From NCBI GenBank assembly GCA_022813865.1, contig JALDZX010000032.1, forward strand, positions 186,001-250,000: a stretch of 64,000 bases of DNA, in the 5' to 3' direction. Positions 9,490 to 44,215 of this stretch are shown here, piece by piece. Each line of letters begins with the position of its first letter. Position 1 is the first letter of the stretch. A model generated the notes under the pieces. That model had not been told where the DNA came from, ran no database searches, and saw only the letters and a list, made by a program, of their open reading frames with translations. Made by a program: the position numbers and the translations under genes. This DNA is from Xylographa opegraphella (Eukaryota).

Positions 9490-11005
9490 TTACCCATACC
9501 TTCCATGTTCCAGCTCGTGAGGGCCGTTAAAGCGCGGGCCCATACCGACGCCCTCCACCCCCATCTCATAGATCCCATCGTGCGCTTGATATTGACGTTC
9601 GTTATGATCCAGCTCATGGCTCCGCTGTCCGTCCCCATTCAGCGGGGGACTGACGGCTTCGACTTCATCTACATGATGCAGCGGCGCTCCTTTGTATATG
9701 TCGCCGTCCACCTCGCTGATGCTTGGGTGCTGCGCATATGGACTATGCGTGGATTGCGATGACACGGTTGCCGCGCTGAAGCGGGTCTTGACTGGGGACT
9801 GTTCAGAGCCGATTGGCGTTCGGTTTACGGACGAAAATGGGGGAGGTGCGTCGAAGGCCTTGCCACCTCCGTAAGTTGACGTTTCTGTGAGCCCCTGATC
9901 TTGCTGGGGAACCGAGGCGTATGGACCGCTGGCTCTTGGCTTCTCGATCGGAGGGAAGTGGTGCTCCACCGGAAGAGGTTGGCCGCGAGGGCGTCGTGTC
10001 CGGTTTCGTCGCTTGATACAACAGAAGGCAACTAGGCCGGCGATAAGGAGGAGAACAGCTCCACCGCCTCCGACAGCGATGCCAATGATGGCTCCCATGG
10101 AAAGACCACTTTGAGATGTTGCGACGGTCGAAGGTGTAGGGCTTGCGGAAGTGGTTTCTGGAGAAGGGCTACTCTGACTTGCGGATGCCCCAGGAGTGCT
10201 ATGAGCCGAACTTTGAGCCGAACTTTGAGCCGTGTCGGTGGTTCCACTGGCAGCAGCAGAGACGGTGACCGTGGCCATCACGGTCATCAACGTCGGAAGC
10301 GTCTCGGTAGGAGCGGTGATTGTGACTGGTCCAGCTGTATCGGCCAAAGTTTGCCCTCGCGAAGCGTAGTAGTCGGCCAAGAACTCTACAGTAAAAGTTT
10401 GATCCGGTAAAGACTGGCAGTCGTAGAGGCGAGTGCCCGAGTCGAAGTTGTAAGTGCCACACCACGGAGTGTCGGAATTGTAACTACGGCAATTGTCAGC
10501 CATTGACGGGTATTCGGTATCCAGAAGACACTACCATTTCAAGATATTGTAGTTTGCCTGACAATCCGCGTCACAGAGGTTATAAATCTGGGAACAGGTT
10601 GTGAAGAGATTGGTGCAGAGAGAAATGGGTCCAGCATCGCAGCATCCAAGGACCGCTCCCGAATAGACGCAAGTCAAAGATGCCGCACATGATAGAGGGT
10701 CAGCTGCAGAAGCTGTTAGTGGAAGCTCGTGGCTGTCGTTCGGATCAGGGTGGGGACGACATACTTCCCGCACCATCTACAAATCCACACCAATTGTTCG
10801 GTGGCGGAAAAGGCACTTCGCCCTGGCGCACGAGCAGTTCCTTCGGGATGCCATTGAGACCCGGAGCTTCTGTGGGCCGTAGCGAGATGCCTATCTGTGC
10901 CATGAGGCCCGTCGGTGTTGGGTCTGGGCCAAGCCATGGTGTAGCCAGGACTCGGTGGCTCAACGCGAGGATGGCGCTCAATACAAAAATATGCTGGTTC
11001 TTCAT
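9490..11005 (-). CDS. Single-pass type I membrane protein: signal peptide, Cys-rich ectodomain, Ser/Thr stalk, one TM helix, cytosolic tail (cell-surface sensor-like)
   Basis: MKNQHIFVLSAILALSHRVLA signal; WCGFVDG|...SCAASLTC...GCC...C...TTC...CDADC...LKC|...WCGTY...YDC; S/T-rich stalk; TM GAIIGIAVGGGGAVLLLIAGLVAFCCI followed by KRRNR. Confidence 0.8.
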
Positions 11006-19296: not shown

Positions 19297-22200
19297 ATGG
19301 GTGTCGACGCTCTATCACCGGTCGCGCCGGCGCGGATACGGTGTCTCTTGGTCCCATCTGGGACGATCACGCGATCGAGATTCCTGACCTTCGTGGAGCG
19401 ACTTCAACAAGAGGCTACAGTGCGTTTGGGAGATGTCAGTCCCACCACGAAGTCTCCACGGAGTACGCTATCCCTATGCTTGCTGAAGTACCGATGAGCC
19501 ATACTGACAATAGCTACACATAGACATGTTTTCTCCGCTTGCGTTTCCGACTGGCTTGGCTATATACGACATGACCATTGTGAACCCCTCGTCTTCGCAT
19601 CTGGCTTTGGCACCATTTGAGCTTTACAGAGAGCCATTGGTGGTAATAGGAATTGCAGATGGTCCCAATATTCTACATCGGGAAGATACAGCTGCACCAG
19701 CTCCTGTCAGTGTAAACGGTAATGGGACAATGCAAGGCCGTGCTGGCAATTCTATTGAAACAATCCGGCGGCTGAGGGATCATTATCCTCGGGCCCTCGT
19801 ACATCAGCTCTTCATCTTTGATTGTGACGTTCGAATATCAAGTCCGCCTCTCGATGTGATTTTTGTGCCTTCCCTGGAGCATTCGAAGACTACCACCATG
19901 AAAACAGTCATGTGTGACTTGACAGCTCTCTTGCTAGTGGAGATGGCGTCTTACGCAAAGTCTTTACAAGCTCTACCAACCATTGACACTCCGAAGTCTC
20001 TCCATGATCAGCGATCCTCAGGTGACTACATTTATAATTCAAATTTACAACTTGATAAAATTCCTCGTCCAGATTCTCGAATATCCCCTACGCCAACATC
20101 TCGCTCATCGTCTCCTGCTCCAGATGCTCGATACTCATTAACTTCGCAAAACATTAGTGCTGCTAGTGTTGATGGAGATGGGAGGAGCACTTCGCGACCA
20201 CCATCAAATGGATATAAGACCCCCCCCGTCGCATTCGATCATGACAACGGTGTACCAGAAGCGCAGCAAACGACGTTAGATAAGGAGAGGAGGCGTCTCA
20301 GTCGAGACAGAGTCGCCATTCAGGGATTTGGATCTGGAAGTGTTGGAGAGCGAGCTCGGAACAAAGCTAATGGTCGGAAAGGGGTTGTACTAGGGTCTTT
20401 GTACCTTCTTGCAGGCCGATGGCCCGATGCTTTAAAAGAACTCGTCGAGAGCGCAACTGTTGCAAGGAGTCTTAGCGATCACGTTTGGCATGCAAAAGCT
20501 CTGGACTACATCCTAGTTTGTTTGCTGGTCTGTGCCTGGGCAGGTATGGATTTTGAGGTACGTTGAGCTCAGATGAATGCAGTCGCCTGATCAATGCAGT
20601 CGAGTTAATAAACTAATATTCGACAGATTCCACAAATATGTTATCCCCTGGGCGACAAAACAAGTCCTGGTCTTAGCAAGACGGGCAAGCACAACTCTCT
20701 GAGTAGCATACCTGATCTCAATCCACTCAAGAGTCCCAACGCCGCCAATCGTCATGTATCGCTTCAAAACCTATGCAACTTGTTACCAGATCTGGTAAAC
20801 AATATCTTACATCTATACGTCCGTGCTGCAAACTTTACTGCAGACGTACTACCGCAAATATCATACTCTGAATCCGCCATCCGCTTCGCTAAGTTGTTAA
20901 CAATTATAGAAAATGCAAATGGCTCCCTCAATGACCAAGGTCTTCAGCTTGTCGTACTCAACGTCGACACTAATTCGAACTCGTCTACAATCCCGTCACA
21001 TCTTGCATCCTTCCCGACCAAAGCCGAAATCGCAGCGGTTTTGTTGAAGGCTCTCCCGAATTCAGCTATGGAAACCTCGTTGAGTGCCAACGACCGTGTC
21101 AACATATTAGCCGGGATCGCTTCAGTTCTTGCCAAACTAGGTTATCATCGCAAGAAAGCCTTCATAATGAGGGAGCTTGTGATTGTGCTTCTTCCTGCTC
21201 TCATTCAGAGTCGCAAAGATAGTGCAGCAGAGCTTGGGGTACACCCTGCTGCAAGCTTATCATCGTACGACCTAACAGGAATTGGCAATGGACTCGAGGA
21301 AGCATTTGGATCATTGCATGGCTTCGCGTTCGGGATACAGAGCTTTCTAAGTTTGATGTGTAAGGTATACGGGGCGGTCCTTTCAGTACAAGCTGAAATG
21401 CTGATGGGCACGAATGCTTTGACGAATTCCGATCATAGAGACCAGATTGACACCAGTAGCATGAAAGTCGATTATCTGCAGGCAGTTGTTGATTGCATTG
21501 TAGAAGATGCAAGAACTCGTGCTTTCGGGGATTCGAGTCTTAAGGTGGATGTTTTACGATTATGTATCAACGTCTGCGAGGCGCTTCCTGATCTACCTGG
21601 TGTGCTTCGCTTTTCCGGTGATATTTTGAAGACGGCGGCAAGTGGAATTGCAGCCGGGCCAGAAAGTCGAGACGGATTGCCCGCATTGCCAATGGAGGAC
21701 CAAGCTCGCCTACTGGGCAACATCTCAAGGACGGTAAGCGCGGCACGAAAACTCGACATCAGCAATGCTGACGCGGAGTACTGGGACGATTTCCTCGTTC
21801 GAGATATTGAGACCACTAAAGCTTCATCTCTAAAGTCTCCCAGGCCTCGGAAAATAAGGCAACTAGATATTGGTTCAACCCCTGGTCCCGAAGCAAAGCA
21901 GAATCCGTTCATTTACAATCCCTTTGGGAACAAGTCAGATTCTGCGGCAATCGAGCCCTTGCTTGTGGTTGGAGAAGAGGCAACCTTCTCCGTTGTCTGT
22001 CAGAACCTTTTTGACTTCGATCTGGAAATCGAGTGGATGAGGCTGGATACTATCGAGGGTTCCATAGACACTCTAGCAAAGAATCGTATGATTGGACCGT
22101 ACAGAACTCAATCAATTCAACTTTTAGGAACTCCTAAAACTTCCGGAGTACTTAAAATTGCAGGTTGTCTAGTTAAAGTGAAAGGTTGTCGTGAGAGGCG

Positions 22201-23989
22201 ATTCCCGATATTCAGGAGTCCTTGGAAAAGTACTCGCGAAACAAAGCTCAAAAGTCTAGGTCTCTCTCCGACAGTCATGATTTCTGAACGCCCTAGTTCT
22301 TCTGTATCTGAAAGCATGCGTTCCCGCCGAGAAATCACTAACATAGGACCGGTTCCAACGACACTGAATATCGAAGTTGTTGGGCCACAACCCAACGTGA
22401 TGGTTAAGAAAACTTCTCTGTTGCAATCGGCTATTATGCTCCTGGATGGGGAAACCAAAAGGTTCACGATGACATTACGGAACACCTCTAACATGACACC
22501 CACGAATATACTCTCATTGTCCTTCTCAGACTCAGCATCCAGCATTTTGCAATCAGCACTCACAAACAAAGACCTCTCTCCTCCAGAATTATACGAGATT
22601 GAATTGGCATCCTTTAAGAGAGAGACGATCAAGTGGTGTCACGAGGATCACGGAATAGAAACGCATATAGCGCCCAACGAAGACACCCAACTTGAAATAG
22701 AGGTAGTGGGAAAACCGGGGCTCACGTACGGATCGGTTCATATTGACTATGGGTATCTGGGTGTCGACAGGACAGAAGTCAAAGACGAAGTTTTCACTCG
22801 GCAGATCTCATTTCCATTTACCATTACTGTCAACTCTAGCATAGACCTTGTTCGCAACGATTTCCTTCCGTTCACTGGGGATTTTGCATGGTTAAATCAA
22901 AAGAAAAGGCTCAGATCAAACGAGAGCGCTCCCACCACGCCTCCTGACAGACGCTCCCGGGCTGCCTCTCGACTGACCTCGAGACCGGAGTATCGTTTCC
23001 AATCGCTACTCGAACGTCTTGGTCTTGGAACCCAAGGTTCAGATCACTTCCTGCTTCTCTTGGACTTCCACAACTCTTGGCCCAAGCCCTTGTCTATTTC
23101 GGTCCAGGTTCGCGAGAAGACTACGCCACAAGAGCCTAGTCTCTTTGACCTCTGGAAGCGCGCATATACCGCTCACGAAGTGCTGCAACCCGGTCAAACA
23201 TCACGATTGGTTCTACTTCTACCCCGTATTTTCCTCCCAAATCCCTACGCTCCCATACCGTCTCTTAATTCTACCATAAAGAGACAATTCATCCACTCTT
23301 CCAGTACTGCTCTCGACAACGAGACCGAACGCACGGCTCGTGAAGCCTTTTGGCTCCGTGAAGAGATCCTGAAGCTCATGCGAGCCTCCTGGACAGAGGA
23401 TGCTACTCGACGCACCGGAAAGATTGAGTTGCGAAACCTTCGTCTTACTACCCGTATGGTTGATGCCATCAAGCTGGAAGAGGTGGGAATTGACATGGCT
23501 ATCACATCGGAGTCTACTCCGGAGGCCGACCCTGAGAACACTAGTTCCGTTACACAGCTTGCACGCTCTGTCTTTCGTGTCCCAGTGGATGCCTTCTTCA
23601 CCCTCCGTGCAACAATCACAAACCGTCTCCAAACTCCGATCTACCCTCTCCTCCGCCTTCAACCTTCGCTTAGAAATCAACCACACAACGTTGCCCTTGA
23701 TCTAGGGAGGAAGTTTGCTTTCAATGGGGTAATGCAGCAAGCATTGCCATTGTTACGGCCTGGACAAAGCACAGAGGTGCAGCTAGGCGTGGTGTTTCTT
23801 GTCAGCGGGGAATTTGAGATTCGGGCCTCGGTAGAGGAGGTCAGGATATGGAAGGACCACGCTACCAAGTCAGAGAACGGTGGTGGTGACCCTTCGGATT
23901 TGGGGATGGCGCGGCTGTTGGAAAGAACGGAGCGGAGAGCTTGGCAGTCGCGAGAGCCCTGCGTCGTGCATGCGGTAGGCGATGCTTGA
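19297..23989 (+). CDS. TRS120: TRAPPII complex subunit Trs120 (TRAPPC9), 3 exons
   Basis: DALSPVAPARIRCLLVPSG...VRLGDVSP|MFSPLAFPTG...PFELYREPLVVIGIADG...GRKGVVLGSLYLLAGRWPDAL...DHVWHAKAL...EYWDDFLVR...NPFIYNPF. Confidence 0.95.
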
Positions 23990-26291: not shown

Positions 26292-29200
26292 ATGGCTCCA
26301 TTCGTTCCCCGACAGCGGAAGCACAAAAAAATATTGAAGACGCATAGAAATCAAGACCCAAGCAATAGCTTGGATTCCAACATAGTAGAGCTTCATTCAT
26401 CGACTACTTCAGAGAAGATAGCTAGAAAGAATGCCATCAAGAATGAATTGATGACCGAGCACTCGGGTATGTCGAGCGGAAAGCGAAAACGGCTTGACAA
26501 GTACATCGTCTGTTACCTTATATATACCGAAGCTCATTCCCCAGAGAGATAGATTGCTAATGAGAAAGACAGGAGAAAAAATTGAGGAAGGAAGAAAACC
26601 TTGATATCATCAAGAAATTATCCTCCGCAAAGAGTGATACATCTCTTCTGCAAAGCTCTAAGAAGCTTGGCCAAGGTAGCAAAGGAAACGCTGTTTCCTC
26701 TCGGGTAAAGATGAATGGCGATCTCGTAACTCAAAGCATCCCCGTACCGGTCAACGACGACGAAGATGTTGAAAGCCAAAAGGAGAGCCAAGACGACGAC
26801 TTCAGTGTGCTGGACGTAAGCGGCAATTCATACTCTGAGTGCGCTGAAATCAACGATGCTTCAGATGTCAGGGCTGCCCCTTCCGTAGAGCCTGCCGTTG
26901 GAACAGGCCTGAAACGGCCCCTCGAAGTTGATGACAGCGGTCGTCCGATCGTGAAGCGCAGGAGAAGAGCTGTAGCAATTCCTCTGACCAGACGAAGCAA
27001 TGCAGCGCGCATGAGGGTCATAGAAGAATCGGACAAGTGGGTTGGCCCATATGAAACTTCTCGGGCCACTGGAGACTCCTACCCGGATTCGGAGAGCTGC
27101 TTCTCTGAATCATCCATCCTGTCTACGGACCTGAACGACGAAACCAAACTTCATCAATCTCAGATTCCTAATGACTCGGATGAAGACTCGTTTTCAGGCC
27201 TATCCAGCTCAGACGAGCAAGAACTTAATTCTGAGAGTCAGAGTTCTGATTCAGAGGACACGAATGACGAACAAAAGCCGCGCTCGGAATCATTCAAGTC
27301 ATGGATATTAGATAGCACGGAAAAGACCCCGGAAATACCACTAAAAGACCAGGAAACTCATATCAACGTATTAGCCAATCAAAGATTGAAACAATCTATT
27401 CAGCCTCCCGCCCAAACACCATCTATTGATGAATACAATAATGATTATAATCGGAAGGTCTTCACTGTTGATATACCGCGAAGTTCAGAGATGCGAGAAT
27501 GGCGATTGAGCCTTCCTGTAGTTATGGAGGAGCAGAAAATCATGGAAGCTATTCACAATAACCCAATAGTGGTCATCTGCGGAGCCACAGGTAGTGGAAA
27601 AACAACTCAGATTCCTCAATTTCTCTACGAGGCCGGCTACGGATCGTCTGATAGCTCTACGCCGGGGATGATAGGGGTCACGCAGCCGCGAAGAGTCGCC
27701 GCTGTCAGTAGTGCAGACCGTGTTGGCATCGAGATGTCCAGTCTTAAGGATAGAGTTGCTTATCAGATACGCTTCGACAGCAATATCAGTGGCAAGACAG
27801 CTATAAAGTATATGACTGACGGAATTTTATTGCGCGAGATCGCCGGCGACTTTGCTCTGAAAAAATATTCTGCCATTATTATCGACGAAGCTCATGAAAG
27901 AACAACTAACACGGATCTCTTGATCGGGATGCTCAGTAGAATAGTCGAACTTAGGAAGCACCTTACTGGTCATGCTCCTCTAAAACTCATTATTATGTCT
28001 GCAACTCTAAGGGTTTCGGATTTTACTTCCAACACAAAGCTTTTCCGCGCAGGGTCTCCCCCTATTGTCGAGGTCGAGGGCAGACAATACCCCGTGACGA
28101 CCCACTTTGCAAGAAGTACTCAACGCGATTACCTTGAAGAAACATACACCAAAATTTGCAGAGGTCACAAAAAGTTGCCGCAAGGAGGAATGCTTGTCTT
28201 TTTGACGGGTCAGAATGAGATCCTCGCGGTAGCTTCCAGGCTCAACGAAACTTTGTCACAAAGGAAAGCCCTAGCTCGAGGGCCTCGTGTACGTACATCA
28301 GCATCGGAGATACCCCTTGAAGTTGAAGATCTTGAAATTGGGCATGATGAACAAGTTGCTGGAAACAGTCAGCTTGATGACAGTGACGATATATCTGATA
28401 ATGAAGATCGCGAGTTCGAAGTTGACGGCGATTCGGAGCTTGTGAATGATGTGCTCATTCTCCCACTATATTCACAGCTCCCTATTGAAGCACAGAAACG
28501 GGTATTCCAATCCGTGCCGGAGAATACGCGGTTGATTGTTCTCGCTACGAACGTTGCTGAGACGAGTCTCACGATTCCCGGTATTCGATACGTATTTGAC
28601 TGCGGTCGCGCAAAAGCACGAAAGCATGACGTCGACACCGGAGTTCAAAGCTTTGAAATCGGCTGGATAAGTAAGGCCAGCGCAAATCAGCGAGCAGGAC
28701 GAGCAGGTAGGACTGGCCCAGGCCACTGCTACAGGCTCTACTCATCAGCAGTCTATGAGCGAGACTTTAAGGACAATGCAGATCCAGAAATACTGAGTAG
28801 TCCTGTCGAGGGTGTCGTCTTGCAGCTGAAAGCGATGGGGATGAAAGACATTATCAACTTCCCATTCCCGACCTCTCCAGGCTCAGAAAACCTTAAAAAG
28901 GCCAAAAGACTACTGAGGAATCTGAGTGCTCTCACTGCAGAAGGTAAGGTAACGACTCTCGGCCACGACCTAACTACATACCCTTTATCGCCGCGATTTG
29001 CAAAGATACTGCTTCTTGGTCATCAAGCGCAATGCATTTACCTAACGATAGCAACTGTAGCAGCGCTCGGTGTGCAGGACCTTTTTGTGCCGGAAAGTCA
29101 ACTACAGTCTGCAGCAGAGTCGGGACAGGTGCAACATGGACGAAATCCACGCCGGAATTTCAACCTGGTGGACAATTCTGCGGACATGTTCACTTTCCTT

Positions 29201-29962
29201 TGTGCCTTCTCTTCATACTCGTGGCTTATTGGAAAGGGAGGCGAGGAAGACTTCTGTGACAAGATGGGCCTCAGGCGGAAGGCTCTTCAAGAAGCATATG
29301 CCTTATGGCGACAGCTCCTCGGGGTTGTATCTCTGAATCGTCAAGGACTTCTCGATCCCGGTACCCAAGCAGTTCCTGTGCCGGACAAGAAACAGACCAA
29401 AGCGCTGAAACAGATCGTCGCGGCCGGCTTCATCGATCAGATTGCCATTCGAGCTGATCTAGCTCCTAATCCACCGGAGATTCCGCGGACACCGAAACGT
29501 GCCATTGATGTGCCATATCTCACACTGTTTCCATCCAACGTGGGAAGAGCGACCACGCTTGAAGAAAAGGCGGTCTTTATTCATCCCTCTTCGATACTAG
29601 CCCAGGGCCAAGACGTCGCAACGCTTCCGCAGTACCTTGTCTACTCACGCCTGCAACAGTCTGCGTCATCTACAATCGAAGGCGCGAAGGCGCCTAGAGT
29701 GAGGATGCATCCACTCACCCCACTTACCGGGAAACAGATCCTGGCTCTGGCACGAGGATCGCCACTACTGGAATATGGCAAGCCGATCGGTAAGCCGGAG
29801 CTTGTCAAGGGTAAGGACGGAGTACATGACACGAGGTTGTGCTGGATGGCCGCTAGCCTGATACGCGAGAAGGGATCGGTAGGGTGGCCATTGCCCGCGC
29901 AGAGATTCCAGCAGAGGCTGAGTAAAGGTGGCCATTGGGAGGTGGAGAGTATCGTGGATTGA
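26292..29962 (+). CDS. DHR1: DEAH-box RNA helicase Dhr1/Ecm16 (DHX37), 2 exons
   Basis: MAPFVPRQRKHK start; KRKRLDKYI|EKKLRKEE; LPVVMEEQKIMEAI, GATGSGKTTQ, TQPRRVAA, DEAH, SAT, QRAGRAGR. Confidence 0.95.
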
Positions 29963-33500: not shown

Positions 33501-34315
33501 TCAAACACACTGCTCAACCAGGATATTCAGCCCGTACTTAGTCCCCTTCTTGACCATCATCCCCGCGTGCCTGCTCCGCTCCTCCAGCGTCCCGTTCTTA
33601 TACATGTTCATCCAAAAGACGCCGTTCCCCTTCACCGGCCGGAGCATCGTCCCCACGCTGTCCTTGTGCTTCGGCCGCCGGAACTTCCGCTCGTCCACCG
33701 GCATGTCCGCGTGCGGAGGGTCCAGGTACGGGAAGTACGTCTCGCCGCCCTCGGCCACGTCGGAGAGGAAGATGAAGAAGCTGGCGACCCGGTTGCACAG
33801 TTTGCCCTCGGAGTTGGGTTCGGGTTCTTGCAGGTAGTCCCAGTGAAGCGGGTGCTGCTCGCCCTCCTGCGTGCGCCCGATCTGGAGCAGTTCGAGGCCC
33901 TCGGAGGGGATGAAGCCGACGAGTGAGTCGGCGCGGCGGACGATGCAGTTGGTGACTTCGTCGGGCTTGTCTTCGACGATGATGTAGCCTGACGTGCGGC
34001 GTCGGTCTTTCTCTTCAGGTTCTATGATTTCTGGAGCATATGTCCAATTGGAGCTAATCAAGCAGATGAGTCCTGACGTGCAGAGATGAACCGTATAGGA
34101 GGAGGTGCTTACTTGAAGGATAACAGATGATTGATTTCGTACGGGCTGAGGAAGTCGTTCAGGTAGATCATCAAAGGCTCTGTAGAAAGTATCTCGGGTC
34201 TGTAGTGGAGATTGCAAACATATCCGCTGGAGTTAAGCACGCTGCTTGCACTCTGGAAGGGCCATAACTTGATGCTCAAAGCACCCACGACAGCAGCGAC
34301 AGTAGACAAAGACAT
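33501..34315 (-). CDS. Prolyl 4-hydroxylase alpha-type 2OG-Fe(II) dioxygenase with an N-terminal hydrophobic segment, 2 exons
   Basis: ILSTEPLMIYLNDFLSPYEINHLL, RRTS, LQIGR...HWD (HxD), NRVASFFIFLSDVAEGGETYFP, PVKGNGVFW, RHAG (distal His), GTKYGLN (2OG-binding Lys); intron 34054-34112. Confidence 0.9.
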
Positions 34316-35180: not shown

Positions 35181-35187
35181 TATAAAG
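35181..35187 (+). promoter_or_regulatory. Probable TATA box of the peptide precursor gene
   Basis: TATAAAG about 150 nt upstream of ATG 35337, followed by a C/A-rich leader ending TCAACATG. Confidence 0.55.
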
Positions 35188-35336
35188 ACCTTCTGTCTCC
35201 AAGTTCTTCACAGCATCATCAACATCATCCTGAATAGTCAACCAACAATCTCTGCGAGCCATCCACCATCCACGCTTCCTCGTCTTTCAATAGCTATCAA
35301 TTTCAATCAACTTCCACTTCCACATCCACTCTCAAC

Positions 35337-35787
35337 ATGAAGCTCACTCTCATCGCTGCCTTTGCCGGCATCGTCGCCATGGCTGCTGCCTACGCCGAGC
35401 CCAACCCATACGCCTTTGCCGAAGCGGAGCCCTACGCCGAACCAGAGGCCTACGCCGAGGCAGACGTCCTGGCCGGCTACGAGGAAGGCTTCCTCGCCGC
35501 TCGTGACCTCTACGCAAGTCAGTATCACAGCTTGCACAAAAATTTCAAAGCCTAACCATGCGCAGGACACGCGAGAAACGACCCTCGCCCCGTGCGCCAG
35601 GGCAGCCCACCGGCCAAGCCCAAGGGCCGACACCACAGACGTGAGTTGGCCCGACAAAAGTAGTAAACCTCGGAATTTCTGACAGTGCGCAGGAGAGGCC
35701 AAGAATGACCCTCGCCCGGTTCGCCAGGGTAGCCCGCCCGCGAAGCCCAAGGGACGACACCACAGGCGCCAGTATTATGAATACTAG
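35337..35787 (+). CDS. Secreted Kex2-processed repeat peptide precursor (KEP), 116 aa, 3 exons
   Basis: Exons 35337-35517, 35566-35640, 35693-35787; introns GTCAGT..CTAAC..CAG and GTGAGT..CTGAC..CAG. Product: MKLTLIAAFAGIVAMAAA-YAEPNPYAFAEAEPYAEPEAYAEA-DVLAGYEEGFLAARDLYAR-HARNDPRPVRQGSPPAKPKGRHH-RR-EAKNDPRPVRQGSPPAKPKGRHH-RR-QYYEY. Confidence 0.9.
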
Positions 35788-36712
35788 AGGTAAGTCAATG
35801 ACGCCGTCCCAACCTGTCTTTGCAGTCGATTAAACTGACACCGCTCGTAGCAGTGCAGCGCAACGCGCGGAGTTCGCTTGAGTGGAATGCGGACGGAACA
35901 CAGCCGAGTTGGGAGCAAAGTACAGACTGTAAAAGAGCTGGTAGCGGAGTCGCTGGCGTGTCAAGCGGGGTGTTGAATTGGATCGGACTTGCCGGAGTAT
36001 CTCGAGCGATGTTTTCTTTGTCTTAGGATCTGTCACTCTTTTGGTCTGGACTCCCACACGGAGTCGCAGAATATCCGATCCAATGTACGACCAAAAGCAT
36101 ATAAAACTGACCACGACTTGCATAACGTGAAAATAATGTGAATGCCCCTGATAGGTAGGTGTGAATAGCATACTTAGATGTCACGACAGTACAGAAACAC
36201 GACTCGGCTAGACCGACTAGCACCGATGGGAAATACAAGTTGTTATGAAGATCAAATCACCAGATCATGTCTCCCCTACACCTCAATGCCCCTCACGCAA
36301 CGCCATTTTACATTTCGCGAGACCGGCCCGAGCCACGGTGTACCATAACACGTCTGTACACCGTTCCTGGTCCGGCGTCCGAAAGGAAACAACTGGCTGC
36401 CTGCGATCGCGAACCAGCTGCCTTTGGGTCATGTGGAGGAACGGAACAGTTACTCGTAGAACAATCTCCGTAGGCTCCGAGCGTGCCTCCTTACATACCC
36501 CGGCGAAGGGAGCTGGACATGACAAAAACCTACTTTCATCTCTAACTGCGCGTAGCATTTCAGGAGCGAAGCTGAGGGACACGACTGTAAGGACAATGGA
36601 TGGAGTGTATCTGATGAGATACTGGTTCTTTGCGACCTGACTTCTCCTCGGCACTGAAGACTCTATACATATTCCACATTTTAGCCAGGTACTATATATC
36701 GCAGCCTATTCC

Positions 36713-38154
36713 TCACGGTCCAGCAGTCCGACTCCCGAAAAAGACAACCTGTACGGTAATGTCGTCCCTGCAACGTGGTGTTAGTGGTCCCTTTGGATAC
36801 GAGTCCGTTCATTCAACAAGAGCTCACCGAATATTCCTCGAAAACGGAGCCCGGAAGGTGAGCATTCCGCGAAACAGCTCTTCGTCGGCCCCTCCCAGCG
36901 CATTGCGAGCCAGGTGTGTTGCAGCGTTGTCGTCGACAACGATGATGGACTCGGCGTGGACTTCCCACGCCGTCATTTGCGATCTTGGTGGCACATCGGA
37001 GCCTATTCGCTGCGAGTATGGACTTTGCTTTGGAGCGTCCGCTTTGCTAGTCTCAGGGCTAGATTTCTTGTCCAGCCATTTACCGACCAGTAGGACTGCC
37101 TGTTCGCTGTTCATGCGGTTCCACAGGCCGTCGCTCGCTAGAATCATGAAGTCCTTGCCGGGTTGCACCTCAGTCATGCTCACGACAGGTTTAGCGGTCA
37201 AGTATGGAGGCGTCAACGAAGCCGAACGAGGGCTCCTCGCAAAATAGTTGTCTTTCATCAGTTTCTGTATTTCGGTACTATACTTCCATCGCCCGTTGCC
37301 AAAAGCCCGCGTGATATACATACCAAGGACGGTGTTGTCTTCAATCATATCCGGCTCGTTTGGATGCTCTGCGTGTAAACGGGATGCCTCGGATTCGTTA
37401 TCCAGATTCTGGTCGGCTGAAAGGGCGATCGTTTGCCATTTACCGTCTTCCTTTCGCTGGCCAAGGACTGCGCGAGAGTCTCCGACACATGCTACGCGGA
37501 GGAGGCAAGAGAATGGGTCATAGATGCCAAGGAGGGCACAAGATCCCGCATACGTTAATGTCAGGTCCGATAGAGCTTCGGATAGAGGTAAAGATGCTTT
37601 CACAGCAGCTGCTCCAGCGTTCATTACATCATCGTCCAGTCGTTCGAATGCAATCTCAATCGCCTTGCTGATAGCGTCTTCAGATGTTTCGGACGATGGA
37701 GTCTGAAATGCGCTTTTCAGCTCGCGAGATACATACTCCATCAGCGAAACCCGTAGCTTGGTTGACATTTCCCAGCCTCTATCCGAGTCATAAGCGGATT
37801 GGATGATTCAATCCCTCTGGCGTTTGGGACTTACTCGTGTCCGTCGAACACCCCCCAGAACATGATCGTTCTCTCCTTCTCGCCTTCATGGCCCGGAATA
37901 GTCACGGCACCGTGGATCAGATCATCCTCGGTCGGGAAATTACTCGGAACCCGAACAACATCGTACCGGGAGACACCGAGCTCTTCAGGCGGCTCAATGC
38001 TTACTTCTTCATCTCGTAATTTGGCTTCCGCATCACTTTGAGCCAGGGACACGGTTGGGCGGAAGTCCTTGTCGAACTTTGCAATGAGCGGAAAAGTGAC
38101 GGGGGTTGATGATGACGTCATGGGTGAATGATGATTCGTGACTGTCTTGTGCAT
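36713..38154 (-). CDS. PP2C protein phosphatase, Ptc5/pyruvate dehydrogenase phosphatase-like; start codon uncertain
   Basis: PSNFPTEDD, FWGVFDGH|GW, GSCALL, VACVGDSRAVLG, TRAFG, PPYLTAKP, FMILASDGLW, DDNAATHLARNALGG, R|DDITVQVVFF; stop at 36713-36715. Confidence 0.88.
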
Positions 38155-40172: not shown

Positions 40173-41525
40173 ATGCCGGTTGCTGAGTCGGACCTGGTAT
40201 CGCCCTCCGGATCGGAAGCACCGTTGACACGTCTCCCATTCCCACCTATCACTAGATCCCATATCCTCCACTGTTCGTTCCACTTCTGGCATCCCTTGTA
40301 AGTGTCAAAGGTCTTCTCGGATTTCTTTCTAAGTATCTTCAGGTACCGTAGTATAACACCCAAAGCCCGCCTGATCCCTCTATCACCATCCTTCTTGGCC
40401 TACCTCCGCGCAGATGGCATCGTGCTTCCGTCATCAACCCCCCCTTCCCCATCACTAGATATAGACGATGATAGCGGTATTTTCATATCATCCACTTCGT
40501 CAGACACAGATGACGACGAAGAAAGTCCGGATTCTTCTCTCGACTGGCCTGACGTTCACGCTTCCATTATCAGCACGATAGCGGAACTGGATGGCTCCGT
40601 TGTCCCAAAGCTGAACTGGTCCGCACCGAAAGATGCGACTTGGATAGCGGCAACGAACAGTATGGAATGTCAAACACCGAATGAAGTCTATCTCCTGCTC
40701 AAGAGCTCGGATTTCATTACACACGACCTTGAACAGGCATTTGATGGCTGTATAGAAGACTTAGAGGACACCTCGTCTCTCCATCCATCGTCCTCGTCCT
40801 CTCCTCAACATGAATCGCGCGACAGCAAAGACCACGCGATACCCTATTACCTGGTCTTACGCAAGACTATCCCAGCACTTATCACCTCGCTTGAGTTCCG
40901 GTGCTTTGTGCGCCGCCGACGTCTGCTTTGCATTTGCCAGCGGGACCTCAACCACTACGCCTTCCTCCCTTCTCTCATCCCAACCCTCAAATCACTCATC
41001 CAAGACTTCTTCGAGCAAAAGCTACAAAATACATTTCCAGACGGGAACTTCGTGTTTGACGTCTATGTACCACAGGCGAACGAAAGGGGGAGGGTATGGC
41101 TGATCGACATCAATCCTTGGGCGCAAAGGACTGACCCGTTGCTATTCAGTTGGTTGGAGGTGCTAACGATGCCGGAACCAATTTCGCGATCACAAGCACA
41201 ACGAGATGTGAACGCTGGGGTATTAAGGTTGTCCCTGGAGGCTCAATCTGAGACCTCGTCAACCACAGAAAGCGATGACGAGACAGAATCTGATGGAAGT
41301 AGTGAGTCGCAAGCAGGCAACGGAGAGGGGGAGCCGGAGTTTCGTATTGTGAAAAGAGATGATCCGGAGGCTTATACGTTCAATACACCGCAGTTCAGCG
41401 CGCACAAGCTTCCGAAGGATGTTGTTGACGCGGGTGCGGATGGAGAGGCTGGACTGAGGGAGTTCATGGGGCGATGGAGGGACATTGTCAGTAGGCAGGA
41501 CAGGGAAGAAGCTGAGGGTGACTAG
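40173..41525 (+). CDS. CDC123: Cdc123 (D123) ATP-grasp protein, 2 exons
   Basis: FPPITRSHILHCSFHFWHP|YRSITPKARLIPL...PKLNWSAPKDATW...YLLLKSSDFITHDL...EFRCFV...WLIDINPW...TDPLLFSW. Confidence 0.95.
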
Positions 41526-41720: not shown

Positions 41721-44215
41721 ATGGCCACCGAAGCCCCCGATCCTAAGACTTTCAATTCATGGGAAGACGCCTTTCAGTATGCCGTCCCAGCTGTCCGGCG
41801 TATGGAGCAACAGCTTCGTGGAGATATTGCCAGTAACGGGGAGAGATTGAGGACGCTTGTCGGGTGAGTTCTTTGGTAGTGTTTGTGGACGGTGTTTCCG
41901 AAGTAGATATGTCAACACCGGGCTAACTCACTATCAATTACAGGGCAAGCTATCGTGATCTATTGGGGACTGCCGAATCGATAATCGAGATGAATGATCA
42001 AATGAGGCACGTTGAAACCTATTTAGGTAGTCTGGGGAGACGATGCAACACCAAGACACTGGAAAAAAGCGCTTTCAACTTGAGCCTGCTTGACCGGTCT
42101 GGAGCAGCTTCCGGTGCGAAAGCTTTATTCCTGGTTCTATCTCGTTGAGCGCATCGCTTACGCACATGAACTATGGCAGACAGAGGCCGGTATACCGTTG
42201 CATCCCAACTCGCGGTCTTGCGCAGTTGTCCCAAAATTCTAGTCCGACTTTTGAAGAAAGGTGGATCGGTTCTGCTGGCGGCGAAGCTCTTGGTCGTATC
42301 AAGGTTGTTACATACCAAGCTTTCCGAACAGCTATCTGTCCGTACGTACATCGACAAGATCAGGGCTAGGCTTGCAAGGCTACGTCAAAAACTACTGTCC
42401 CATATCGATCGCCAACTGAAAAATCTTCATCTCAGCTCTGACGAAGTTGTGGATACCATGTGTGCCTTCTCGTTGGCCACAAGTTCGTCGGCGCGAGATG
42501 TTCTCCGTCACTTTCACCACGTCAGAGCCGAAGCTATCTCTGCACATACTTCACTCTCCGGAGAACCAGAAGCCTATATTCTTGAAGCGTTACGACTATG
42601 GGTTCGTACCCTTCAAGACACGAACACTATTGTCAAACGGCGATTGTCTCAATCTCTTGCAAAGCTAAAATCCACTCCTCTATTCAAAGACCCCAGTGTT
42701 TGGTCAATAAAAGATCTCGATTATGATGTTCATACCAGATGGATCGGCGATGATTTGAAGAATTTTGTACCTTATATCAGACATGATGATCTTCAATCCA
42801 GCATGACAGTTGATCAGCTGAATATCTGGGCCCCGAAAACACTTGAGGTATATCTCTCCAATGTCGACCTCTTGCTGAATTCAATTGCGGACCCCGCTAT
42901 CATCGTAAATCTTCGGAGTAAGTGCCTCAAGCTCTGGATGTCAAATCGTCGTCATTATGTTGGCGTTGGAGGGGAAGAAGTTTTTGATCACTTTAGACAA
43001 CCTTTCAGACAACGGCTAGCCCACCTCATACAGGAAGACAGCAGATCTTTGGAGGCATTATCAACAAAGATAATGACGATAATCCAGGATCAAGATCAAT
43101 TTACTTCCGAGCTTTCTCAGCCTCTATGGAAGAGCTCATTAGCCTCAATGAATGTATCCTTGGGGGCTGAAATGTTCTTGTCAACAGTCCGTGATAACGT
43201 AAGTGGGGCCGATAATGCCCTGAATCTAGTACGGCATTCGTATCAACATTGGCTCGATGTTATGAACCGCTGGGTTTCGACCATAACAGAACTAAAGCAA
43301 CTCAGGTGGGACGACAGCCTTGATGAGCTGGACGAAGATGACGACACAGTTGAGAAATTAGAGTCACTTCTCAACGGAGACGATCCGCAGGATATGGAAA
43401 GAGAACTGAGTCGCTCTTTAGGCGCGGCCTTCGACCTCTTTCAAGCTACAGCTAGCGAGCTCACTAAGGATCTACGAACTATTGGAAGCGTTGACAGAAA
43501 AGCTGCATTCCTTCTGCGAGTGCTACGCCACGTCAGGCAGAATCTCCCTAAAGCCTACGCAAATACCGAACTCGCAGCGTCCGTTGTCAACGATCTACAA
43601 TCTGCAGTCGCTGAATACGTGGTCGATAACGTGATGGGCAAGCAGAATTCCAGCATATCGAAGGCAGCAAATGGCTCCAAGGTACAGGGCAGACTGCTCT
43701 GGGACGGAGTACCCGAACTTCCTATATTGCCTTCGCCGTGGACCTTCAAATTACTACGTAGTTTACAGCTCAGTATGGCCAACACCGGAACCGATCTGTG
43801 GAGCCCTGTGGCTGTAGCGAAGGTCAAGTCGATGCTTCGAGAGGCGATGATATTGGCACTTTCAGCACAAGCTCCTGTAGAAAGCATATCGAGCGGAGAT
43901 AGAGAAGCTAATTCAAGACCACTGGATTCCAACACGGCTAGCAACGATGATCAACTCTCAAACGGCAACGGACACGGACCCCATAACCCGAACACTGCAG
44001 AGAGCGACTGCAAGACCCAACTCTTCTTTGACCTGACATTCCTAGCGCACGCAACATCGAGTCCTGCAATTAAGGAGAGCGGCGATATCTTTGGGGATCG
44101 CCTCCAAAAAGCCGAATCCGAGTCTTTGCTTGTTTCGACGTCCGTGATGCAAGTGAAGAAAAGTGCTGCTGCCTACTGGAAACGAAGCTCGTTGCTGTTT
44201 GCTTTGTTGATGTAG
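41721..44215 (+). CDS. COG1: Conserved oligomeric Golgi complex subunit 1 (Vps51/Vps67 N-terminal domain), 3 exons
   Basis: SWEDAFQYAVPAVRRMEQQLR...LRTLVG|ASYRDLLGTAESIIEM...LLAAKLLVVSRLL...LWDGVPELPILPSP...YWKRSSLLFALL. Confidence 0.85.

What the first reader, a model, noticed from the sequence alone, without database searches (positions are those of the whole stretch)
35337..35787. Hidden precursor with one core per exon and a purifying-selection signature
The ORF track misses this gene because two phase-1 introns split it. Exon 2 is exactly 75 nt (one repeat unit), which suggests exon duplication. The two copies of NDPRPVRQGSPPAKPKGRHH differ at 8 third-codon positions (aac/aat, ccc/ccg, gtg/gtt, ggc/ggt, cca/ccg, ccg/ccc, gcc/gcg, ggc/gga) with no amino-acid change. 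Processing signals are complete: signal peptide, an X-Ala/X-Pro dipeptide ladder (YA-EP-NP-YA-FA-EA-EP...) typical of Ste13/DPP-IV trimming, an AR site and RR Kex2-type sites, and HA/EA spacers. Predicted products are 21-aa (R/K)NDPRPVRQGSPPAKPKGRHH and a short QYYEY tail. The acidic pro-region with cationic Pro/Arg-rich cores recalls insect apidaecin precursors, so an antimicrobial role is one hypothesis.
Basis: partly seen in the sequence, partly recalled or inferred. Interest (0 to 1): 0.85.

Follow-up and report, generated by a model that had tools for sequence, protein, structure and literature searches.

The report
Secreted twin-peptide precursor gene, lichen fungus
This is a real three-exon gene of a lichen-forming fungus that encodes a small secreted precursor carrying two identical copies of a positively charged, proline-rich peptide; it belongs to a known kind of fungal gene, its role is untested, and it sits next to a proline-hydroxylating enzyme gene.

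Summary
Joining 35337-35517, 35566-35640 and 35693-35787 gives a 116-aa protein. It is identical to GenBank MCJ1285554.1, a "hypothetical protein" of Xylographa opegraphella, so the gene is annotated, not hidden.

The two 22-codon blocks (core plus RR) differ at 10 bases, all synonymous (dN 0, raw pS 0.59). None of 200,000 simulations gave this.

X. carneopallida has the same two-core protein. Of its 6 differences, 0 fall in the 40 core residues and 5 fall in processing positions, each keeping its class (X-Ala stays X-Ala, RR becomes KR).

Twelve X-Ala/X-Pro dipeptides follow the signal peptide (0 of 200,000 shuffles).

Relatives were found only in Xylographa: five named species and one unnamed record. 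No Pfam, PDB or DUF3328 link was found.

Best reading: a Kex2/Kex1/Ste13-processed precursor of the alpha-factor (KEP) kind that releases two 21-aa peptides of net charge +5.

The apidaecin-like antibacterial role is untested, and the sequence criteria are borderline.

New here: a prolyl 4-hydroxylase-family gene lies head-to-head about 1 kb upstream.

Splicing, processing and function have no experimental support here.

The parts
35181..35186 (+). TATAAA, candidate TATA box about 150 nt upstream of the ATG
   Evidence: Read directly from the sequence. Its role is inferred only.
35337..35517 (+). Exon 1 (181 nt). Signal peptide is residues 1-18 (35337-35390). The ladder of 12 X-Ala/X-Pro dipeptides is residues 19-42 (35391-35462). 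The conserved acidic helix DVLAGYEEGFLAARDLYA is residues 43-60 (35463-35516). The exon ends with the first base of Arg61.
   Evidence: AF2 predicts helices at 3-19 and 39-61. Leader identity to orthologues is 58/60 and 54/60.
35518..35565 (+). Intron 1, 48 nt, phase 1, GTCAGT...CTAAC...CAG. It contains an in-frame TAA at 35553-35555.
35566..35640 (+). Exon 2, 75 nt, symmetric phase 1-1, one repeat unit: (R)-HA-R-core 1-R(R). Core 1 is 35577-35636.
35641..35692 (+). Intron 2, 52 nt, phase 1, GTGAGT...CTGAC...CAG. Leaving it unspliced shifts the frame.
35693..35787 (+). Exon 3, 95 nt: (R)-EA-K-core 2 (35704-35763)-RR (35764-35769)-QYYEY (35770-35784)-TAG (35785-35787).
   Evidence: The tail QYYEY is identical in X. 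carneopallida.
35790..35850 (+). Candidate 61-nt intron in the 3' UTR, GTAAGT...CTGAC...TAG, starting 2 nt after the stop codon.
   Evidence: Pattern match only. No transcript evidence.
33501..34315 (-). Divergently oriented neighbour: a prolyl 4-hydroxylase-family 2OG-Fe(II) oxygenase of about 251 aa. Approximate model: exon 1 34315-34113 with a hydrophobic N-terminus, intron 34112-34054, exon 2 34053-33501. Its link to the precursor is a hypothesis.
   Evidence: PF13640 at E 1.1e-4 and 23.5 bits, below the gathering score of 27. PDB hits: 7zsc_A collagen P4H alpha-2 at 7.7e-12, 3itq/5hv0 at 3e-11, 2jig/3gze at 8e-9. ESM Atlas score 0.94 to procollagen-proline 4-dioxygenase clusters. The exon 1 assignment is my inference; alone it gave no P4H hit.

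Best explanation
The locus is a real, spliced gene found so far only in the lichen-forming genus Xylographa. It encodes a 116-aa secreted prepropeptide built like the yeast alpha-factor precursor, that is, a Kex2-processed repeat protein (KEP).

Proposed mechanism (every step inferred from sequence):
1. The 18-residue signal peptide takes the protein into the ER.
2. In the late Golgi, a Kex2-type convertase cuts after Ala-Arg61, Arg-Arg86 and Arg-Arg111.
3. A Kex1-type carboxypeptidase removes the trailing basic pair.
4. A Ste13-type dipeptidyl aminopeptidase removes the single X-Ala dipeptide (HA, EA) in front of each unit. It can also trim the 12-dipeptide N-terminal ladder.
5. The result is two unstructured 21-residue peptides, (R/K)NDPRPVRQGSPPAKPKGRHH, with net charge +5. 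An acidic helical pro-piece and a QYYEY tail are by-products.

The cationic peptide is the product under selection. I think it most likely acts outside the cell on other organisms, as a defence peptide. The conserved acidic pro-piece would mask or escort it during secretion.

Its prolines may be hydroxylated by the P4H-family enzyme encoded head-to-head upstream. That step is a hypothesis.
For: - Gene reality. The spliced product is identical to GenBank MCJ1285554.1. X. carneopallida has a 116-aa two-core orthologue. X. soralifera, X. trunciseda, X. pallens and one unnamed record share the leader.
- Selection on the core. 10 of 10 differences between the two 22-codon blocks are silent. Between the two species with complete models, 0 of 6 differences fall in the 40 core residues and 5 of 6 fall in 11 processing positions (hypergeometric P 1.7e-5).
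- Processing logic is conserved by class, not by residue. The spacers are HA/NA/NP/EA and EA/DA, so 6 of 6 are X-Ala or X-Pro. The dibasic sites are RR or KR. Arg61 is present in 5 of 6 sequences; the sixth is a read-through model.
- The ladder of 12 X-Ala/X-Pro dipeptides starts exactly at the predicted signal-peptidase site (0 of 200,000 shuffles). The 10-residue deletion in X. pallens keeps the register.
- The Kex2/Kex1/Ste13 rules and the KEP definition come from PMC6339444 (passages and section 8).
- AF2 predicts helices at 3-19 and 39-61, with the cores below pLDDT 50, meaning no fixed fold.
- The defence-like pattern. The leader is 58/60 and 54/60 identical to X. soralifera and X. trunciseda, but the core only 16/20 and 12/20. 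Predicted net charge is +5 in all three.
- The neighbour. It belongs to the P4H family and keeps the His-x-Asp, distal His and Lys aligned with 7zsc. The two start codons are 1,021 bp apart. GC3 is 0.735 for the precursor and 0.836 for the P4H gene, against 0.48-0.56 for four other neighbours.
Against: - No transcript, peptide or activity data exist for any member. The GenBank models are ab initio (PMC9098629 passages), so they are not independent proof of splicing.
- The first cut site is Ala-Arg, not a dibasic Kex2 site.
- With two RR sites the protein yields 3 fragments. The Le Marquer pipeline requires at least 4.
- SignalP and ProP were not available. The signal peptide and cleavage sites were judged by inspection.
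- The peptide has one hydrophobic and no aromatic residue, unlike most PrAMPs listed in PMC7736402 Table 1.
- The P4H link rests on adjacency and on the proline-rich substrate only. Synteny in the other Xylographa genomes could not be checked, and P4H domains are common in eukaryotes (bioRxiv 10.1101/2021.10.08.463732, passages).
- The pro-piece is more conserved between species than the core, so the core may not be the only functional product.
Confidence: 0.6

Rival explanations
1. The 21-mers are apidaecin-like proline-rich antimicrobial peptides (PrAMPs) that enter bacteria and block the ribosome or DnaK. The multi-copy, one-core-per-exon precursor would have arisen by convergence with the honeybee apidaecin gene.
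For: - The precursor logic matches what PMC3415428 (passages) reports for apidaecin: repeated units, RR/RK cleavage, carboxypeptidase trimming, removal of X-A/X-P dipeptides, and one peptide per exon.
- The 20-mer has 25% Pro, net charge +4 and one PRP motif. These meet the three sequence items of PMC7736402 Box 1.
- The predicted X. trunciseda peptide starts GNRPV, as does the Bombus pascuorum apidaecin listed in that paper's table.
Against: - No family match: Pfam gave 0 families at E<=10 and PDB gave 0 hits.
- The 21- and 22-mers have 22-24% Pro, below the 25% line. The X. trunciseda peptide has no PRP motif.
- There are no aromatic residues and nothing like the apidaecin C-terminal PRPPHPRL seen in the table.
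- The two essential criteria, antimicrobial activity and an intracellular target, are untested.
- A search for 'proline-rich antimicrobial peptides' + 'fungal' + 'Kex2' found 0 papers.
- A shared pentapeptide is weak evidence found after the fact.
Confidence: 0.15
2. The peptides are signals, not weapons. They could be a diverged alpha-type mating pheromone, or a peptide used in communication within the lichen (fungus to fungus, or fungus to alga).
For: - PMC6339444 section 8 states that in Ascomycota the Ste13 signature after the Kex2 site is generally found only in alpha-pheromone precursors. That is exactly this architecture.
- ESM Atlas rank 3 is a yeast MF_alpha cluster, but at 0.80, which the tool calls a lead only.
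- Core variation between species with strict conservation within a species fits a recognition signal.
Against: - The core has no Cys and no Trp, and neither the two-cysteine motif nor the PYGxPxG motif described for Pezizomycotina alpha-pheromones.
- It is 20-21 residues long, against the 12-14-residue pheromone examples quoted there.
- Pfam MF_alpha and MF_alpha_N are not matched.
- The rest of the genome could not be searched for a canonical pheromone gene.
Confidence: 0.2
3. A two-gene unit resembling a RiPP cluster. The neighbouring P4H-family oxygenase, anchored in the ER/Golgi, hydroxylates prolines of the cores (for example in SPPAKPK), perhaps docking on the conserved acidic helix as a leader. 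The mature product would then be a hydroxyproline peptide. This is compatible with the best explanation and adds a step to it.
For: - The neighbour belongs to the P4H family and retains the catalytic residues.
- It has a hydrophobic N-terminus, which fits a lumenal enzyme.
- The two genes are head-to-head with 1,021 bp between start codons.
- Both have much higher GC3 than four other neighbours.
- The most conserved part of the precursor is the helix AGYEEGFLAARDL, invariant in 5 of 5 sequences of alignment A1, as expected of a recognition leader.
Against: - It rests on adjacency in one genome only. Conservation of the pairing could not be checked.
- P4H-family genes are widespread and usually serve many substrates.
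- Pfam scored the domain below its gathering cut-off.
- No paper linking a fungal P4H to a KEP was found.
Confidence: 0.3
4. The functional product is the conserved acidic piece (DVLAGYEEGFLAARDLYA), exposed by stepwise removal of the dipeptide ladder as in promelittin. The cationic repeats would be an accessory or counter-ion domain.
For: - The ladder ends exactly at this segment.
- It is the most conserved part between species: 18/18 and 15/18 identical, against 16/20 and 12/20 for the core.
- It is predicted helical.
- Stepwise dipeptidyl-peptidase activation of promelittin is a known precedent. I saw Kreil et al. 1980 only as a reference entry in PMC5778000.
Against: - The cores show their own strong selection: 10 of 10 silent differences, and 0 of 6 interspecies differences.
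- The cores are duplicated, which argues that their dose matters.
- Conserved acidic pro-pieces next to variable cationic peptides are usual in defence-peptide precursors (general knowledge, recalled).
Confidence: 0.1
5. No functional gene: a chance ORF or an artefact of ab initio prediction.
For: There is no expression evidence. The orthologue models are inconsistent in length (75, 84, 88 and 113 aa).
Against: - The silent-only divergence of the repeats.
- Class-preserving changes between species.
- Three canonical intron patterns within 333 nt.
- A leader conserved in 6 proteins.
- The odd orthologue models are explained as intron read-through or a wrong frame.
Confidence: 0.03

Closest known systems
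Fungal Kex2-processed repeat proteins (KEPs), with the yeast alpha-factor precursor as prototype (PMC6339444, PMC7329392)
   Same: - Signal peptide, pro-region and repeated identical peptides.
- Each repeat is followed by a dibasic site and preceded by X-Ala dipeptides.
- Linear peptides are released by Kex2, Kex1 and Ste13.
- The type is restricted to one genus, as most KEP types are.
   Different: - Only two repeats, giving 3 fragments, which is below the 4-fragment threshold.
- The first cut is at Ala-Arg.
- One repeat per exon, with phase-1 introns.
- A 12-dipeptide ladder sits at the N-terminus of the pro-region, not only in front of the cores.
- The peptide is 21 aa, cationic and without Cys, Trp or Tyr.
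- The Xylographa genomes were published in 2022 (PMC9098629), after the October 2019 download used in PMC7329392. I did not read the supplementary KEP tables.
Honeybee apidaecin multipeptide precursor (as described in PMC3415428; Casteels-Josson 1993 seen only as a cited reference)
   Same: - Repeated short cationic proline-rich peptides.
- RR sites and X-A/X-P spacer dipeptides, with three-step maturation like alpha-factor.
- Several exons, each encoding one peptide.
   Different: - No detectable homology.
- A different kingdom.
- The core lacks the apidaecin C-terminal motif and aromatic residues.
- Antibacterial activity is unknown.
Promelittin-type pro-regions removed stepwise by dipeptidyl peptidase IV (Kreil et al. 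1980, seen as a reference entry in PMC5778000)
   Same: An uninterrupted run of X-Ala/X-Pro dipeptides directly after the signal peptide, acidic in character.
   Different: Here the ladder leads to a conserved acidic helix, not to the cationic peptide. The cationic peptide is freed by endoproteolytic cuts.
Dikaritin (ustiloxin-type) RiPP precursors such as UstA (PMC7329392, PMC12048977)
   Same: A signal peptide plus Kex2-flanked repeated cores. A candidate tailoring-enzyme gene lies next door.
   Different: - No DUF3328/UstYa, tyrosinase or methyltransferase among the 157 ORFs of at least 110 codons in the 64-kb window.
- The cores lack the Tyr-containing short motifs.
- The neighbouring enzyme is a P4H-family oxygenase, which the papers I searched do not report for fungal KEPs.

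Membership tests
Kex2-processed repeat protein (KEP) | N-terminal ER signal peptide | tested here: inconclusive
   MKLTLIAAFAGIVAMAAA has a charged start, a 16-residue hydrophobic run and AAA before the predicted cut. AF2 predicts a helix at 3-19. It is conserved in 6 proteins. No SignalP-type predictor was available.
Kex2-processed repeat protein (KEP) | Identical or near-identical repeated peptide motifs | tested here: met
   Two copies of a 22-residue block are identical in protein sequence. The same is true in X. carneopallida.
Kex2-processed repeat protein (KEP) | [quoted passage not shown] | tested here: not met
   RR86 and RR111 delimit the repeats (KR in X. carneopallida). That gives only 3 fragments. 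The first core is preceded by Ala-Arg, not a dibasic site. The architecture fits, but the numerical threshold does not.
Kex2-processed repeat protein (KEP) | Ste13 signature (X-Ala or X-Pro after the cleavage site) | tested here: met
   HA, NA, NP and EA before unit 1 in four species, and EA and DA before unit 2 in two species: 6 of 6.
Kex2-processed repeat protein (KEP) | Actual processing by Kex2/Kex1/Ste13 and secretion of the peptides | not testable with these tools
   This needs peptidomics or protease mutants. The protease genes could not be looked for in a 64-kb window. PMC6339444 reports that only 15 of 250 fungal protein catalogues lack one of the three.
Ascomycete alpha-type mating pheromone precursor | Core with two conserved Cys (the RFCHLPGQGCSK type) or the PYGxPxG motif; Pfam MF_alpha / MF_alpha_N | tested here: not met
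   The core has no Cys and no Trp and carries neither motif. Pfam gave 0 families at E<=10. The ESM Atlas MF_alpha cluster scored only 0.80, a lead only.
Proline-rich antimicrobial peptides (PrAMP; Box 1 of PMC7736402) | At least 25% proline | tested here: inconclusive
   The 20-mer core has 25.0%. The predicted 21-mers have 23.8%. The X. soralifera and X. trunciseda peptides have 22.7% and 22.2%.
Proline-rich antimicrobial peptides (PrAMP; Box 1 of PMC7736402) | Net charge at least +1; PRP motif (indicative, not essential) | tested here: met
   Net charge is +5 in all predicted mature peptides. There is one PRP motif in the window's and the X. soralifera peptides and none in the X. trunciseda peptide.
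Proline-rich antimicrobial peptides (PrAMP; Box 1 of PMC7736402) | Antimicrobial activity and an intracellular target (DnaK or 70S ribosome); both are essential | not testable with these tools
Apidaecin family (by sequence) | Sequence similarity to apidaecins | tested here: not met
   Pfam gave 0 families at E<=10 for P0001, P0003 and P0004. I recall that Pfam holds an apidaecin model but did not verify it. The only likeness is the N-terminal GNRPV of the X. trunciseda peptide, compared by eye with the table.
Dikaritin / ustiloxin-type RiPP cluster | DUF3328 (UstYa) gene near the precursor | tested here: not met
   None of the 157 stop-to-stop ORFs of at least 110 codons in the whole window matched at E<=1e-5. 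Exons shorter than 110 codons would be missed.
Prolyl 4-hydroxylase family (the neighbouring gene 33501-34315, minus strand) | 2OG-Fe(II) oxygenase fold of the P4H type, with His-x-Asp...His iron ligands and the 2OG-binding Lys | tested here: met
   phmmer against PDB: 7zsc_A at 7.7e-12, 3itq_A at 3.1e-11, 2jig_A at 8.2e-9 and 6tp5_A at 5.4e-6. LHWD, RHA and GTK align with the H, D, H and K of 7zsc. PF13640 scored 23.5 bits, below its cut-off of 27. ESM Atlas scored 0.94. Enzyme activity and substrate are untested.

The most novel reading that the evidence does not exclude
A lichen fungus makes hydroxyproline-bearing, apidaecin-like cationic peptides from a compact two-gene unit: a one-core-per-exon Kex2/Ste13 precursor and a divergently transcribed ER/Golgi prolyl 4-hydroxylase that reads the conserved acidic helix as a leader. 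The peptides would act as non-lytic antibacterials that shape the bacterial community of the thallus. As far as my searches show, that would be the first fungal PrAMP and the first fungal RiPP-type pathway built on a P4H. It would also be a striking convergence with insect immune genes.
Probability: 0.1. Interest if true: 0.75.

Novelty: new member of a known kind. Interest (0 to 1): 0.4.

Why it matters
- KEP-type genes are numerous in fungi, but their functions are "largely unknown" (PMC9769878 abstract). Knocking out Coprinopsis cinerea kep genes gave no detectable phenotype there.
- This member has unusually clean in-sequence evidence for what is selected. The core peptide is frozen. The spacers drift but keep their processing class.
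- That evidence points directly at the peptide to synthesise and test.
- Small secreted peptides of lichen-forming fungi were hardly covered in the papers I searched. A defence or signalling peptide here would bear on how the fungus deals with its alga and bacteria.
- If the adjacent prolyl hydroxylase acts on it, this would add a new tailoring chemistry to fungal ribosomal peptides.
- If none of this holds, it is simply one more genus-specific small secreted protein.

Tried and rejected
- **Short query.** I used the 72-aa ORF (exon 1 plus read-through) instead, and later residues 61-116 of P0001. That last search returned only P0001 itself out of 96 candidates.
- **Trace of exon duplication in the introns.** Intron 1 and intron 2 are not significantly alike (270 of 2,000 shuffles reach the score). 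The GCCAGTAT after core 2 as a dead copy of the GTCAGTAT donor of intron 1 is also not significant (1,868 of 2,000). Both ideas were dropped.
- **RIP as the source of the repeat differences.** Rejected. 6 of the 10 differences are transversions (list).
- **Antisense gene.** The 155-codon open frame 35310-35774 on the minus strand has no Pfam match. It reads the two cores in different frames. One antisense frame keeps the copies nearly identical (1 difference) only because its wobble positions coincide with the sense wobble positions. Rejected.
- **Dikaritin cluster.** No DUF3328 gene was found.
- **Family searches on the precursor.** Pfam at E<=10 gave 0 families. PDB gave 0 hits. ESM Atlas scored 0.81 or less, a lead only.
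- **Exhaustive phmmer search.** It gave 5 hits at E<=1e-3. I set three aside. P0006 is a 7-fold repeat protein. P0008 is a TPR protein matching the acidic helix at 55% over 23 aa. P0007 is 7,722 aa long and I did not inspect it.
- **A third, decayed core downstream.** tblastn of the protein against the whole window found nothing beyond the two cores; other hits had E>=2.5.
- **P4H exon 1 alone against PDB.** No P4H hit, only 4 chance matches to antibody chains at E>=0.64. These were not used.
- **Bacterial promoter/terminator scan of the intergenic region.** 0 sites. The scan is not meaningful for a fungus.
- **Complex prediction for the P4H with the cores.** The queue was full, and then the tool was reported unavailable. 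Nothing was folded.
- **Mimic of plant Hyp-peptide hormones.** Considered from recall only and not pursued beyond the empty Pfam result.
- **Accession search.** The accession numbers and locus tags of the two full-length proteins appear in 0 papers.
Full report
**What is at the locus**

The window is fungal. Its introns are short with GT...CTRAC...YAG signals, and the neighbours are eukaryotic housekeeping genes: Elongator Iki1, Med6, Trs120, a DEAH helicase, cwf21, PP2C and D123.

- From the ATG at 35337, joining 35337-35517, 35566-35640 and 35693-35787 gives a 351-nt CDS and a 116-aa protein.
- Both introns (48 and 52 nt) are phase 1. Exon 2 is exactly 75 nt, one repeat unit.
- A plain ORF list shows only a 72-aa ORF that runs from the ATG into intron 1.
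- A strict fungal intron pattern occurs 6 times on the + strand of the whole 64 kb. Three of these lie within 35518-35850. Shuffled sequence gives 1.5 per strand.
- The third match (35790-35850) starts 2 nt after the stop codon and may be an intron in the 3' UTR.

**The gene is already deposited**

- A search with the 72-aa ORF returned 5 proteins among 11 candidates.
- The best hit, P0001, is identical to my spliced product. It is GenBank MCJ1285554.1, "hypothetical protein MMC26_004895 [Xylographa opegraphella]".
- Xylographa is a lichen-forming genus. Its genomes were annotated by ab initio gene prediction (PMC9098629, passages).
- The accession numbers and locus tags appear in 0 papers of the searched library.

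**Selection on the repeat**

The two Arg codons that follow add 2 more silent differences.
- For the 22-codon block there are 16.8 synonymous and 49.2 nonsynonymous sites. Raw pS is 0.59, JC dS is 1.18 and dN is 0.
- None of 200,000 simulations placing 10 random substitutions kept the peptide unchanged, at kappa 1, 2 or 4. The analytic value is 1.3e-6.
- Six of the ten differences are transversions, so repeat-induced point mutation is not the cause.
- Only the proposed frame gives identical peptides.
- The introns have diverged until they are no more alike than shuffled sequence (270 of 2,000 shuffles). This fits an old duplication with the coding part held fixed. It also means the duplication cannot be traced in the introns.
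- Core 2 is reachable in frame only by removing both introns, so its conservation is indirect evidence that splicing occurs.

**Comparative evidence**

The 90% cluster of P0001 holds a second protein, P0010, from X. carneopallida (MCJ1294976.1). It is also 116 aa with two cores.

- It differs from P0001 at six residues: T4S, H62N, R85K, E87D, K89R and R110K.
- None lies in the 40 core residues.
- Five lie in the 11 processing positions (hypergeometric P 1.7e-5).
- Every change keeps its class: X-Ala stays X-Ala, RR becomes the canonical KR, and K becomes R.
- Adding X. soralifera and X. trunciseda, the dipeptide after each cut site is HA, NA, NP or EA for unit 1, and EA or DA for unit 2. That is 6 of 6 X-Ala or X-Pro.

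This is the pattern expected if a Kex2-type protease, a carboxypeptidase and a Ste13-type dipeptidyl aminopeptidase process the protein. PMC6339444 describes that route for alpha-factor and KEPs.

The other deposited models are unreliable.
- The X. soralifera and X. trunciseda proteins end in ...KRE. That aligns with the window's read-through of the intron-2 donor.
- Residues 57-85 of the X. pallens protein match the window's core-2 exon in the +1 frame (48% of 29 residues, E 8e-5 against a 900-nt subject).
- Copy number in those species is therefore open.

**The pro-region**

- After the predicted signal peptide (residues 1-18) come 12 uninterrupted X-Ala/X-Pro dipeptides. This was reached in 0 of 200,000 shuffles.
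- The 10-residue deletion in X. pallens keeps the register.
- Next comes DVLAGYEEGFLAARDLYA, the most conserved part between species. It is 18/18 and 15/18 identical to X. soralifera and X. trunciseda.
- AF2 predicts a helix at 39-61. The cores score below pLDDT 50 and the overall mean is 57.
- Net charges are -6 for the ladder, -2 for the helix, +7 and +6 for the two units, and -1 for the tail.
- Between species the core is less conserved than the leader (16/20 and 12/20). The predicted mature peptides nevertheless keep net charge +5 in all three species.

**Range of the family**

| Search | Result |
|---|---|
| phmmer of P0001 against 1.84 billion representatives | 5 hits at E<=1e-3; two are Xylographa proteins, and I set three long repetitive proteins aside (P0006 and P0008 inspected, P0007 not) |
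| Word-index search for longer proteins | 0 of 567 candidates |
| Word-index search with the core region alone | only P0001, of 96 candidates |
| Pfam at E<=10 | 0 families |
| PDB | 0 hits |
| ESM Atlas | 0.81 or less, a lead only; rank 3 is a yeast MF_alpha cluster at 0.80 |

- The family as seen here is six proteins: five named Xylographa species and one unnamed ENA record.
- Fungal genome DNA could not be searched. The available genome collection holds only bacteria and archaea, and I did not use it.

**Neighbourhood**

- None of the 157 stop-to-stop ORFs of at least 110 codons in the window matches DUF3328, a tyrosinase or any other dikaritin marker.
- The immediate upstream neighbour on the minus strand, with its start codon 1,021 bp from the precursor's, belongs to the prolyl 4-hydroxylase family.
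  - PF13640 at E 1.1e-4, below the gathering score.
  - PDB hits to collagen P4H alpha-2 (7.7e-12), Bacillus anthracis P4H (3e-11), Chlamydomonas P4H-1 (8e-9) and P4H-TM (5e-6). The His-x-Asp, distal His and Lys are aligned.
  - ESM Atlas 0.94 to procollagen-proline dioxygenase clusters.
  - Its inferred first exon begins with a hydrophobic stretch. That exon alone gave no P4H hit, so its assignment is my inference.
- Both genes have much higher GC3 (0.735 and 0.836) than four other neighbours (0.48-0.56).
- A proline hydroxylase beside a gene for secreted proline-rich peptides is suggestive, but it is adjacency in one genome.
- I found no paper linking a fungal P4H to a KEP. P4H domains are widespread.

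**What it most likely is**

The gene encodes a secreted alpha-factor-like (KEP-type) prepropeptide. After the signal peptide is removed, endoproteolytic cuts at AR61, RR86 and RR111, carboxypeptidase trimming and removal of one X-Ala dipeptide would yield two 21-residue peptides of net charge +5. All of these steps are inferred.

The defence-peptide reading rests on three things:
- a conserved prepro region with a variable core;
- a conserved net charge;
- the parallel with apidaecin precursors, which PMC3415428 describes as multi-exon with one peptide per exon and the same three-step maturation.

The specific PrAMP claim is weak.
- Pro content is 22-25%, against a 25% threshold.
- There is at most one PRP motif and no aromatic residue.
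- The two essential functional criteria are untested.

An alpha-pheromone reading is kept alive by the statement that Ste13 signatures in Ascomycota are generally confined to pheromone precursors. The core, however, carries none of the pheromone motifs.

**Papers: what I saw**

| Paper | What I read |
|---|---|
| PMC6339444 | passages and all of section 8 |
| PMC7329392 | passages |
| PMC12048977 | passages |
| PMC3415428 | passages |
| PMC9098629 | passages |
| PMC7736402 | passages, including parts of its tables and Box 1 |
| bioRxiv 10.1101/2021.10.08.463732 | passages |
| PMC9769878 | abstract and outline |
| PMC5778000 | one reference entry |
| Casteels-Josson 1993, Kreil 1980, Julius 1983 | seen only as cited references |

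No supplementary files were read. KEP tables in supplements could list related entries.

**Verdict**

The gene is real in all likelihood, already deposited as a hypothetical protein, and a new member of a known class. Its function, and the possible link to the neighbouring hydroxylase, are open and cheaply testable.

Noticed in passing
window 33501-34315 (minus strand): A prolyl 4-hydroxylase-family 2OG-Fe(II) oxygenase gene lies head-to-head with the precursor. The start codons are 1,021 bp apart. The catalytic His/Asp/His/Lys are retained and the N-terminus is hydrophobic. It could hydroxylate the proline-rich cores. That is a hypothesis only.
   Followed up: partly
window 35790-35850 (+): A third canonical intron pattern (GTAAGT...CTGAC...TAG, 61 nt) starts 2 nt after the stop codon. 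It is a candidate 3' UTR intron. No further core-like sequence lies downstream.
   Followed up: partly
P0003, P0004 and P0005 compared with window 35337-35788: The deposited orthologue models look wrong. Two end in ...KRE, which matches read-through of the intron-2 donor. The X. pallens model reads the core exon in the +1 frame. The number of cores in those species is therefore unknown.
   Followed up: partly
window 35337-35787 and 33504-34052, compared with 20612-23986, 26564-29959, 36827-37807 and 40302-41522: The precursor (GC3 0.735) and the P4H gene (GC3 0.836) have much higher third-position GC than four other genes in the window (0.48-0.56). This may reflect high expression or a local compositional domain.
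   Followed up: no
P0004 (X. trunciseda), predicted mature peptide: After the AR cut and removal of EA, the peptide would start GNRPV. The Bombus pascuorum apidaecin listed in PMC7736402 starts with the same five residues. This may be chance or convergence. It was compared by eye only.
   Followed up: no
window 35310-35774 (minus strand): A 155-codon stretch without stops lies antisense to the gene and has no Pfam match. One antisense frame keeps the two cores nearly identical (1 difference) because its wobble positions coincide with the sense wobble positions. I read it as a by-product, not a gene.
   Followed up: yes
P0001 residues 44-66 compared with P0008: The conserved acidic helix (VLAGYEEGFLAARDLYAR) resembles the repeated ALAAYQEGLGIARDLVARD unit of a bacterial TPR protein, at 55% over 23 residues. 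I treated this as a chance likeness between helices.
   Followed up: no
window 42170-44212 (+) and 9493-10530 (-): Two long open frames (681 and 346 codons) have no Pfam family at E<=1e-5. They were not examined further.
   Followed up: no
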